From assembly GCA_000092065.1 (NCBI GenBank), contig CP000583.1: a DNA stretch of 64,000 nt; one strand, given 5' to 3'. Of this stretch, positions 5,108 to 5,161 are shown in pieces (position 1 is the stretch's first letter; every line of letters starts with the position of its first letter). Made by a program: the position numbers and the translations under genes. The notes below the pieces were generated by a model. That model saw only the letters and a program-made list of their open reading frames with translations, was not told the origin of the DNA and searched no databases. This DNA comes from Ostreococcus lucimarinus (lineage: Eukaryota).

Positions 5108-5161
5108 AAAAAACCCGCGTGTTGACACTGTCAACACGCGGGTTTTTTGTCAACTTGACAG
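5108..5161. promoter_or_regulatory. Perfect 41-bp palindrome (A6-CCCGCGTGTTGACA-c-TGTCAACACGCGGG-T6) plus adjacent TGTCAActTGACA palindrome
   Basis: Read directly: 5108..5148 is self-complementary with a 1-nt centre, flanked by A6/T6. It is immediately followed by a second 13-bp palindrome sharing the TGTCAA half-site. It lies between the WD40 gene 3' end and the OSBP 5' end. Confidence 0.8.

What the first reader, a model, noticed from the sequence alone, without database searches (positions are those of the whole stretch)
5108..5161. Perfect 41-bp palindrome with A6/T6 flanks plus a second nested palindrome upstream of OSBP
The sequence AAAAAACCCGCGTGTTGACA-c-TGTCAACACGCGGGTTTTTT is a flawless 20-bp inverted repeat. 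It is immediately followed by TGTCAAcTTGACA, which reuses the TGTCAA half-site. Random GC-rich DNA does not generate 41-bp perfect palindromes. It lies ~260 bp upstream of the OSBP start codon (4850, minus strand) and ~60 bp beyond the stop of the WD40 gene. Possible roles are a dimeric transcription-factor site, a termination or insulator hairpin between tandem genes, or a cruciform-forming element. It could also be the footprint or terminal repeat of a small DNA element.
Basis: seen in the sequence. Interest (0 to 1): 0.5.

Follow-up and report, generated by a model that had tools for sequence, protein, structure and literature searches.

The report
Transposon excision scar forming a palindrome
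The perfect 41-bp palindrome is real, but it is a young scar present in only some wild Ostreococcus lucimarinus genomes, and its 33 extra bases have exactly the form a hAT-type "cut-and-paste" transposon leaves when it jumps out, so it is not a conserved gene switch.

Summary
There are perfect 20-nt arms at 5108-5148 around one central C, followed by TGTCAAcTTGACA at 5148-5160. This is far beyond chance: simulated maximum arm 9-13 nt, expected count about 1e-6.

The window is the telomeric end of an Ostreococcus lucimarinus chromosome. The palindrome lies between two tandem minus-strand genes, WD40 and OSBP.

Across 21 independent metagenome or isolate contigs of this locus, 15 carry the palindrome and 6 lack exactly 33 bp (5128-5160). 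Those 6 have only one arm (...CGCGTGTTGACA|GCTGG). The 20-mer arm occurs nowhere else in the metagenome collection. Sister species share no alignable intergenic DNA here, and the gene order differs.

All 33 extra bases are reverse-complement copies of the adjacent sequence. An exhaustive hairpin-footprint model reproduces the long allele from the short one only with an 8-bp target duplication (GTTGACAG, which fits the hAT consensus nTnnnnAn) and a 1-nt hairpin offset. Both are hallmarks of Ac/Ds/Hermes-type excision. A single replication template switch cannot reproduce it.

Best reading (about 0.6): an excision footprint with unusually long P-nucleotide tracts, probably neutral. No hAT element was found in this genome, and no allele still carrying the element was found. 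A regulator, terminator or MITE reading is not supported.

The parts
5108..5127 (.). Arm 1, AAAAAACCCGCGTGTTGACA. This is the original left flank and is present in both alleles. Positions 5121-5127 (GTTGACA) are the left copy of the inferred 8-bp target GTTGACAG, lacking its last G.
   Evidence: identical in alleles with and without the palindrome. Model.
5128..5128 (.). Central unpaired C of the large palindrome. It is the complement of the last base (G) of the 8-bp target, as expected at the tip of a hAT-type flanking hairpin.
   Evidence: The short allele reads ...TTGACA G CTGG. Model. Ac/Ds footprints are centred on the complement of the base next to the transposon (PMC5873905).
5129..5148 (.). 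Arm 2, TGTCAACACGCGGGTTTTTT. It is a 20-nt reverse-complement copy of arm 1 (a palindromic 'P-nucleotide' tract from the left hairpin) and is absent from the short alleles.
   Evidence: One palindrome-bearing contig (L003) has a G-to-A change at 5142.
5149..5154 (.). GTCAAC: the short P-nucleotide tract from the right hairpin. With T5148 it forms the left arm of TGTCAA-c-TTGACA. C5154 is the complement of the first base (G) of the target.
5155..5161 (.). TTGACAG: the right copy of the 8-bp target, lacking its first G. The original right flank continues as CTGG...
5128..5160 (.). The 33-bp segment missing from the short allele (L002, L015, L016, L017, L018, L031). The register is ambiguous within the TTGACA direct repeat.
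   Evidence: Alignments; sequence strings.
5206..5210 (-). TGTAA immediately after the WD40 stop codon. It is a candidate green-algal poly(A) signal and would end the WD40 mRNA upstream of the palindrome. This is an inference.
   Evidence: Sequence. The role of UGUAA in green algae is from general knowledge and was not tested here.
5213..6589 (-). WD40-repeat gene (458 aa as called in public assemblies) whose 3' flank holds the scar.
3477..4850 (-). Oxysterol-binding protein gene, 100% identical to O. lucimarinus CCE9901 XP_001416819.1. The scar lies 258-311 bp upstream of its ATG.

Best explanation
The palindrome is the donor-site footprint of a hAT-superfamily (Ac/Ds-hobo-Hermes type) cut-and-paste transposon.

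Shown: natural O. lucimarinus populations carry two alleles. The short one reads ...AAAAAACCCGCGT GTTGACAG CTGG.... The long one (this window) has 33 extra bases, all of them reverse-complement or direct copies of the adjacent 21 bases.

Inferred sequence of events:
1. An element inserted into the short allele at GTTGACAG, duplicating those 8 bp.
2. On excision, the transposase nicked one nucleotide into each flank and sealed each flank into a hairpin. Each hairpin tip is the complement of the base next to the element, which accounts for the two central Cs at 5128 and 5154.
3. Host nucleases opened the left hairpin about 21 nt from its tip and the right hairpin about 7 nt from its tip.
4. The two 3' tails were joined by end-joining across a single T/A match and filled in.

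The product is exactly AAAAAACCCGCGTGTTGACA-C-TGTCAACACGCGGGTTTTTT-GTCAAC-TTGACAG. The A6/T6 'flanks' are simply the local A-run and its copy.

The scar is most likely neutral. It sits in lineage-specific subtelomeric intergenic DNA and now marks one haplotype group.
For: 1. It is a presence/absence polymorphism at one locus. 15 contigs have the palindrome and 6 have the 33-bp-shorter allele. They come from independent projects and assemblers.
2. The short allele is a real haplotype, not an assembly collapse. It is linked to other variants: 4924A, the indel at 6664-6667, and a 2-kb segment at about 7528.
3. Exhaustive model. Target duplication 0-12 bp, hairpin offset 0 or 1, 0-29 P-nucleotides on each side and 0-5 nt of microhomology were all tried. 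Only duplication = 8 bp (GTTGACAG) with offset = 1 regenerates the long allele, and it does so with no unexplained base.
4. An 8-bp duplication and the consensus nTnnnnAn are the documented Hermes/hAT target (PMC10368747, PMC2803484). GTTGACAG fits; the chance of a fit is about 0.04 from the window's base composition.
5. [quoted passage not shown] Palindrome arms reach 20 nt in yeast (PMC5873905, citing Lazarow 2012).
6. A single four-point replication template switch gives no solution, and there is no microhomology at the first switch point (read directly from the sequence).
7. Polarity. The short allele sits on the most divergent haplotypes on both sides (L002, L031) and on L015/17/18. The palindrome haplotypes differ from each other by only about 0.16%.
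8. The arm is single-copy.
Against: - No hAT transposase or hAT-like element was shown to exist in O. lucimarinus. Literature searches were unproductive and the two genome papers are not held.
- The window contains only housekeeping genes and no TIR-plus-8-bp-duplication structures.
- No allele still carrying the element was found among the contigs examined.
- Twenty-nucleotide P tracts sit at the extreme of what is documented.
- Polarity rests on haplotype depth, with sampling bias and evident recombination or mosaic tracts lying 0.8 kb or more away. There is no alignable outgroup.
- A second polymorphic inverted duplication in one contig (L012, near 15436) shows that other processes creating inverted copies may act in this population.
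Confidence: 0.6

Rival explanations
1. Transposon-independent templated mutation. During replication or break repair, the nascent strand switched templates and copied the complementary strand. This happened two or three times in succession, creating the inverted copies (the template-switch class of mutations known to create perfect hairpins).
For: - Every inserted base is templated by local sequence.
- Template switching is a general, documented source of perfect stems (PMC5453318, PMC8794818).
- Contig L012 carries another polymorphic inverted duplication 10 kb away, with 22-nt arms and a 10-nt spacer, that the footprint model cannot explain.
- No hAT element is known here.
Against: - A single four-point switch cannot make the long allele. 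At least three switches are needed.
- Two of those switches are U-turns offset by exactly one base, and the first has no microhomology (read from the sequence).
- This model does not predict the 8-bp overlap of the two retained flanks, nor its match to nTnnnnAn.
Confidence: 0.2
2. The palindrome allele is the older one, of unknown origin, and the short allele arose by slipped-strand deletion of 33 bp between the two TTGACA direct repeats (palindrome instability).
For: - The indel is bounded by a 6-bp direct repeat, the classic substrate for slippage.
- Palindromes are deletion-prone.
- In the unbiased 20-mer sample the two alleles are equally frequent (4:4) and similarly diverse.
Against: - It leaves the origin of a flawless palindrome unexplained.
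- The exact fit to the hAT footprint geometry would then be coincidence. The two central bases alone have a 1/16 chance of fitting, apart from the abutting second palindrome and the 8-bp/nTnnnnAn match.
- The short allele is the one found on the deepest haplotypes.
- One of the repeats lies at the hairpin tip rather than at its base, which is not the usual geometry for hairpin bypass (read from the sequence).
Confidence: 0.08
3. The palindrome is a functional cis element: a dimeric transcription-factor site for OSBP, or a hairpin that terminates or insulates WD40 transcription from OSBP.
For: - It lies between tandem genes, forms a very stable hairpin on the coding strand followed by a U-run, and is the commoner allele.
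- A secondary effect of the scar on expression is not excluded.
Against: - It is absent from 6 of 21 natural alleles, with both flanking genes intact in contigs that span them.
- It is not conserved: the intergenic DNA is unalignable in sister species, and in those examined WD40 is not immediately upstream of OSBP.
- The motif does not recur in the window and the hexamers occur at chance frequency.
- No other gene end has such a hairpin, and terminator-like sites occur at the shuffle expectation, 28 against 27.5.
- There is no Rfam family at gathering score.
- A TGTAA signal precedes it.
- Nuclear Pol II genes do not use intrinsic terminators (general knowledge).
Confidence: 0.05
4. It is a miniature transposon (MITE or foldback element) or the terminal repeat of one.
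For: It has inverted-repeat structure and short direct repeats at the indel borders.
Against: - The arm is single-copy: 8 metagenome hits, all at this locus, and no prokaryotic hit.
- Twenty of the 33 'inserted' bases are the exact complement of the pre-existing flank, so nothing foreign was inserted.
Confidence: 0.02

Closest known systems
Ac/Ds (hAT superfamily) excision footprints in plants, yeast and Candida; the hairpin model of Coen et al. 1986
   Same: - Both copies of an 8-bp target duplication are retained.
- The base next to the element is replaced by its complement.
- Palindromic P-nucleotide tracts are centred on that base.
- The junction has 0-1 nt of microhomology.
- The target fits nTnnnnAn (PMC5873905, PMC10368747, PMC2803484).
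   Different: - The element itself is unknown, and no hAT is documented in Ostreococcus.
- The left P tract (20-21 nt) is at the documented maximum.
- This is a natural population polymorphism rather than an experimental revertant.
P nucleotides at V(D)J coding joints (RAG hairpins opened off-centre)
   Same: The chemistry is the same: a hairpin-sealed flank, opened away from its tip, gives a palindromic addition.
   Different: - RAG and Transib hairpins are not reported with the one-base offset that hAT footprints show (general knowledge, not checked in the papers read here).
- Transib-type duplications are 5 bp.
- No model with offset 0 fits this sequence.
Short template-switch mutations (four-point model)
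   Same: A perfect inverted copy of neighbouring sequence is created in one step, and new hairpins arise de novo (PMC5453318, PMC8794818).
   Different: A single switch cannot produce this allele. The model does not predict the 8-bp overlap or the one-base U-turns.
Bacterial bidirectional intrinsic terminators
   Same: A GC-rich stem flanked by A6 and T6. The terminator scan flags it, and weak Rfam hits to attenuator leaders were found.
   Different: The organism is a eukaryote (telomere repeat at 1-208; O. lucimarinus proteins). The A and T runs are an accident of copying a local A-run.

Membership tests
hAT-type transposon excision footprint | An 'empty-site' allele exists that differs only at the putative insertion point. 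| tested here: met
   Six contigs read ...CGCGTGTTGACAGCTGG... and are otherwise collinear.
hAT-type transposon excision footprint | The two retained flanks overlap by 8 bp (the target-site duplication). | tested here: met
   The enumeration over 0-12 bp gives a solution only at 8 bp, GTTGACAG.
hAT-type transposon excision footprint | [quoted passage not shown] | tested here: met
   Both centres are C, opposite the terminal Gs of the target. Offset 0 gives no solution. The feature is as described in PMC5873905.
hAT-type transposon excision footprint | The target matches the Ac/Hermes consensus nTnnnnAn. | tested here: met
   G-T-TGAC-A-G. Consensus from PMC10368747 and PMC2803484.
hAT-type transposon excision footprint | hAT transposase or hAT elements are present in the same genome. 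| not testable with these tools
   Only this locus of the genome could be fetched. The window has none and the literature searches were unproductive.
hAT-type transposon excision footprint | An occupied allele (element still in place) exists in some individuals. | tested here: not met
   All 8 metagenome contigs holding the left flank, and all contigs fetched through OSBP or WD40, are either short or palindrome alleles. Absence is expected if the element left quickly, so this is weak evidence.
Replication template-switch mutation | The new sequence is the reverse complement of nearby sequence. | tested here: met
Replication template-switch mutation | It is explained by one switch-and-return event (four-point model). 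| tested here: not met
   0 solutions.
Palindromic transcription-factor site / regulatory element | Conserved in relatives, fixed in the species, and recurrent at other promoters. | tested here: not met
   It is polymorphic. The intergenic DNA is unalignable and the gene order differs in sister species. There is no second site in the window and the hexamers are at chance frequency.
MITE / foldback transposon | Multiple dispersed copies carrying foreign sequence between target duplications. | tested here: not met
   It is single-copy, and the insert is a copy of the flank.
Known RNA family (Rfam) | A match at the family's gathering score. | tested here: not met
   The best hit is mir-5856 at 29 bits against 90 required.

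The most novel reading that the evidence does not exclude
The scar is the only visible trace of a recently active hAT-like cut-and-paste transposon in wild Ostreococcus lucimarinus. This genus is regarded as almost free of transposons outside its two outlier chromosomes. The element would have hopped into and out of subtelomeric DNA, leaving a 20-nt P-nucleotide palindrome that now marks a major haplotype group and may alter WD40 3'-end formation or OSBP promoter activity.
Probability: 0.25. Interest if true: 0.5.

Novelty: new member of a known kind. Interest (0 to 1): 0.35.

Why it matters
- It shows that a striking perfect palindrome in a compact algal genome can be a mutational scar rather than a regulator. 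It also gives a concrete recipe for recognising such scars: find the empty allele, then test the 8-bp overlap, the complemented end bases and the P-nucleotide geometry.
- If the hAT reading is right, it is natural-population evidence for recent DNA-transposon activity on a standard Ostreococcus chromosome.
- It would also be evidence that hairpins are opened far from the tip by the alga's repair machinery.
- Practically, the 33-bp indel is a clean marker separating two co-occurring O. lucimarinus haplotype groups in ocean metagenomes.

Tried and rejected
- Prokaryotic genome scan for the palindrome core: 0 hits.
- Viral-contig scan with a 16-mer: 3 hits. None has the locus flank, so I judged them chance.
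- Interspecies outgroup. OSBP relatives at 81-90% identity (including O. mediterraneus and unnamed lineages) have other neighbours, and only coding DNA aligns. Polarity therefore could not be rooted.
- The 2-kb segment present at about 7528 in all short-allele haplotypes was tested as a candidate transposon. It has no terminal inverted repeats, no target duplication and no Pfam domain, and encodes a 613-724 aa repeat protein. It is a gene presence/absence variant, not the missing element.
- Other indels between haplotypes (3884, 6076, 6529, 6664, 9229) were inspected for palindromic footprints. None was found.
- Pfam scan of 38 window ORFs for a transposase: only housekeeping families among the 25 listed.
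- Scan for 8-bp duplication plus inverted termini: only two GC-rich low-complexity chance hits.
- Papers on Ostreococcus transposons gave no family-level information on hAT. Derelle 2006, Palenik 2007 and Hickman 2014 are not held.
- A brute-force two-step template-switch search timed out and was not repeated.

Full report
**Observation**

It reads AAAAAACCCGCGTGTTGACA, c, TGTCAACACGCGGGTTTTTT, followed by GTCAAcTTGACA, which shares T5148 with the large palindrome.
- It is the longest perfect inverted repeat in the window by a wide margin.
- Forty Markov simulations of the window gave maximum arms of 9-13 nt. The expected number of repeats with arms of at least 20 nt is about 1e-6.
- It would fold very stably as DNA or RNA.

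**Context**

- The window starts with (CCCTAAA)n at 1-208, a plant-type telomere repeat.
- Its OSBP protein is 100% identical to Ostreococcus lucimarinus CCE9901 XP_001416819.1.
- So this is the left end of a nuclear chromosome of that picoalga, and the palindrome lies about 5.1 kb from the telomere.
- It sits between two minus-strand genes. It is 53 bp past the stop codon of a WD40 gene (5213-6589) and 258 bp upstream of the OSBP ATG (4850).
- A TGTAA, the usual green-algal poly(A) signal (my own knowledge), lies directly after the WD40 stop at 5206-5210.

**The key result: the palindrome is polymorphic**

I fetched the same locus from public assemblies in three ways: by exact OSBP or WD40 protein, by OSBP variants, and by scanning the metagenome collection for the 20-mer arm.
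- All 8 metagenome hits to the arm are this one locus, so the arm is single-copy.
- 15 contigs carry the palindrome: L001, L003-6, L012-14, L019, L023-26 and L033, plus the window itself.
- 6 contigs lack exactly 33 bp: L002, L015-18 and L031. They read ...AAAAAACCCGCGTGTTGACA|GCTGG..., which is a single arm.
- In the unbiased 20-mer sample the ratio is 4:4.
- The short allele is not an assembly collapse. No long k-mer bridges the junction, and the allele is linked to other variants: 4924A, a complex indel at 6664-6667, and a 2.0-2.3-kb extra segment at about 7528.
- One palindrome contig (L003) already has a G-to-A change in arm 2.

**No conservation**

- In the sister Ostreococcus lineages examined (OSBP 81-90% identical), WD40 is not the gene immediately upstream of OSBP.
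- In one lineage the OSBP-plus-neighbour block is inverted relative to WD40.
- blastn finds homology only inside the coding regions. It stops at the WD40 stop codon and about 45 bp upstream of the OSBP ATG.
- The intergenic DNA is therefore lineage-specific.
- TTGACA and TGTCAA occur at chance frequency in the window.
- The 17-mer core and the small palindrome have no other convincing copy.
- There is no Rfam family at gathering score.
- Terminator-like hairpins in the first 20 kb occur at the shuffle expectation, and this is the only strong one.
- These results argue against a transcription-factor site, a terminator or insulator, and a MITE.

**Anatomy of the 33 extra bases**

Relative to the short allele, the long allele reads as follows:
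- the left flank up to TTGACA;
- then C + TGTCAACACGCGGGTTTTTT, which is the exact reverse complement of the 21 bases AAAAAACCCGCGTGTTGACAG of the short allele, including the G that follows the arm;
- then GTCAAC, the reverse complement of GTTGAC;
- then TTGACAG CTGG..., the right flank resumed 7 bases back.

Every base is templated locally, and there are two adjacent odd-length palindromes, each with a central C.

**Mechanistic test**

I enumerated a general hairpin-footprint model starting from the short allele. It covered any insertion point, a target duplication of 0-12 bp, a hairpin offset of 0 or 1 nt, 0-29 palindromic nucleotides on each side and 0-5 nt of junction microhomology.
- The only parameter set that regenerates the long allele is an 8-bp duplication (GTTGACAG) with a 1-nt offset, 20-21 nt of palindromic addition on the left, 6-7 nt on the right, and 0-1 nt (T) of microhomology.
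- These values were not assumed. They are the hallmarks of hAT elements.
- Hermes makes 8-bp duplications with the consensus nTnnnnAn (PMC10368747; target tables in PMC2803484), and GTTGACAG fits that consensus.
[quoted passage not shown] They are mostly joined at microhomologies, and palindrome arms reach 20 nt in yeast (PMC5873905, citing Lazarow 2012 and the hairpin model of Coen 1986).
- MULE, Transib and RAG also make flank hairpins (PMC5499845), but Transib and RAG duplications are 5 bp, and no offset-0 model fits.

**Rivals**

- *Template switching.* A single four-point replication template switch (PMC5453318) cannot generate the allele (0 solutions). A multi-switch version needs two one-base U-turns and has no microhomology at the first switch. 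It is not excluded, however. One contig (L012) carries another polymorphic inverted duplication near 15436, with 22-nt arms and a 10-nt spacer, that the footprint model does not explain.
- *Deletion from an older palindrome.* The opposite polarity (palindrome ancestral, short allele a slippage deletion between the TTGACA repeats) is mechanically possible. It leaves the palindrome's origin unexplained and makes the hAT fit a coincidence.
- *Haplotype evidence on polarity.* This leans the same way but is not decisive. The short allele sits on the most divergent haplotypes on both sides (L002, L031), while palindrome haplotypes differ by about 0.16%. However, sampling was partly biased, and the divergent tracts lie 0.8 kb or more away.

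**Weaknesses**

- I could not show that O. lucimarinus has hAT elements. The tools reach only this locus of the genome.
- The window holds housekeeping genes only and no structures with inverted termini plus an 8-bp duplication.
- The literature searches were unproductive.
- No allele still carrying the element was seen.
- The 2-kb segment linked to the short allele is a repeat-protein gene, not a transposon.

**Verdict**

- It is a young, single-copy, polymorphic, locally templated inverted duplication. I hold this with high confidence.
- It is most likely (about 0.6) a hAT-type excision footprint with unusually long P-nucleotide tracts, and most likely without function.
- It is a new example of a known kind of scar, and of moderate interest. 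The interest lies mainly in what it says about transposon activity and hairpin repair in a nearly transposon-free alga, and in the warning it gives against reading perfect palindromes as regulators.

Noticed in passing
window 1-208: Perfect (CCCTAAA)n telomere repeat. The window is the physical left end of an O. lucimarinus chromosome. One public assembly (JGI Ga0494222_0011) has about 3.7 kb more sequence beyond the point where the window begins.
   Followed up: partly
window ~7528 (L015:4701-6707, L018:4174-6513, also L002 and L017): A 2.0-2.3-kb segment is present in every short-allele haplotype that spans the site and absent from all palindrome haplotypes that span it. It encodes a 613-724 aa internally repetitive protein with no Pfam match, no terminal inverted repeats and no target duplication. 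It is a gene presence/absence polymorphism in tight linkage with the palindrome indel.
   Followed up: partly
L012:10780-10845 (window ~15400-15450): One metagenome contig carries a second polymorphic perfect inverted duplication: arms TGGTTGTCGCGAGCGGCGGCGC / GCGCCGCCGCTCGCGACAACCA with a 10-nt spacer, replacing about 6 bp. Neither the hairpin-footprint model nor an exact single template switch fits it. It is a single contig, so an assembly artefact is not excluded.
   Followed up: partly
window 6230-6973 and 1591-1882 (L002); 3618-4317 (L031); 2505-2603 (L017): Sharp-edged tracts of about 5-10% divergence sit in otherwise about 99.7%-identical haplotypes. This suggests gene conversion or introgression from a diverged O. 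lucimarinus-like lineage.
   Followed up: no
window 3477-6610 versus L027-L030, L007, L009: Gene order around OSBP differs between Ostreococcus species. In one sister lineage, the block of OSBP plus the neighbouring 372-418 aa gene is inverted relative to WD40. The WD40-OSBP junction therefore appears to be specific to O. lucimarinus.
   Followed up: partly
window 865-1131 and 27342-27598: A 267-bp segment is duplicated in inverted orientation at 92% identity. One copy overlaps the 3' end of the ORF 885-2348 (-).
   Followed up: no
window 28890-29580, 36440-36820, 54750-55000, 58770-59070: GC-rich stretches are mutually similar at about 70%, some of them self-complementary. They are probably low-complexity coding repeats.
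   Followed up: no
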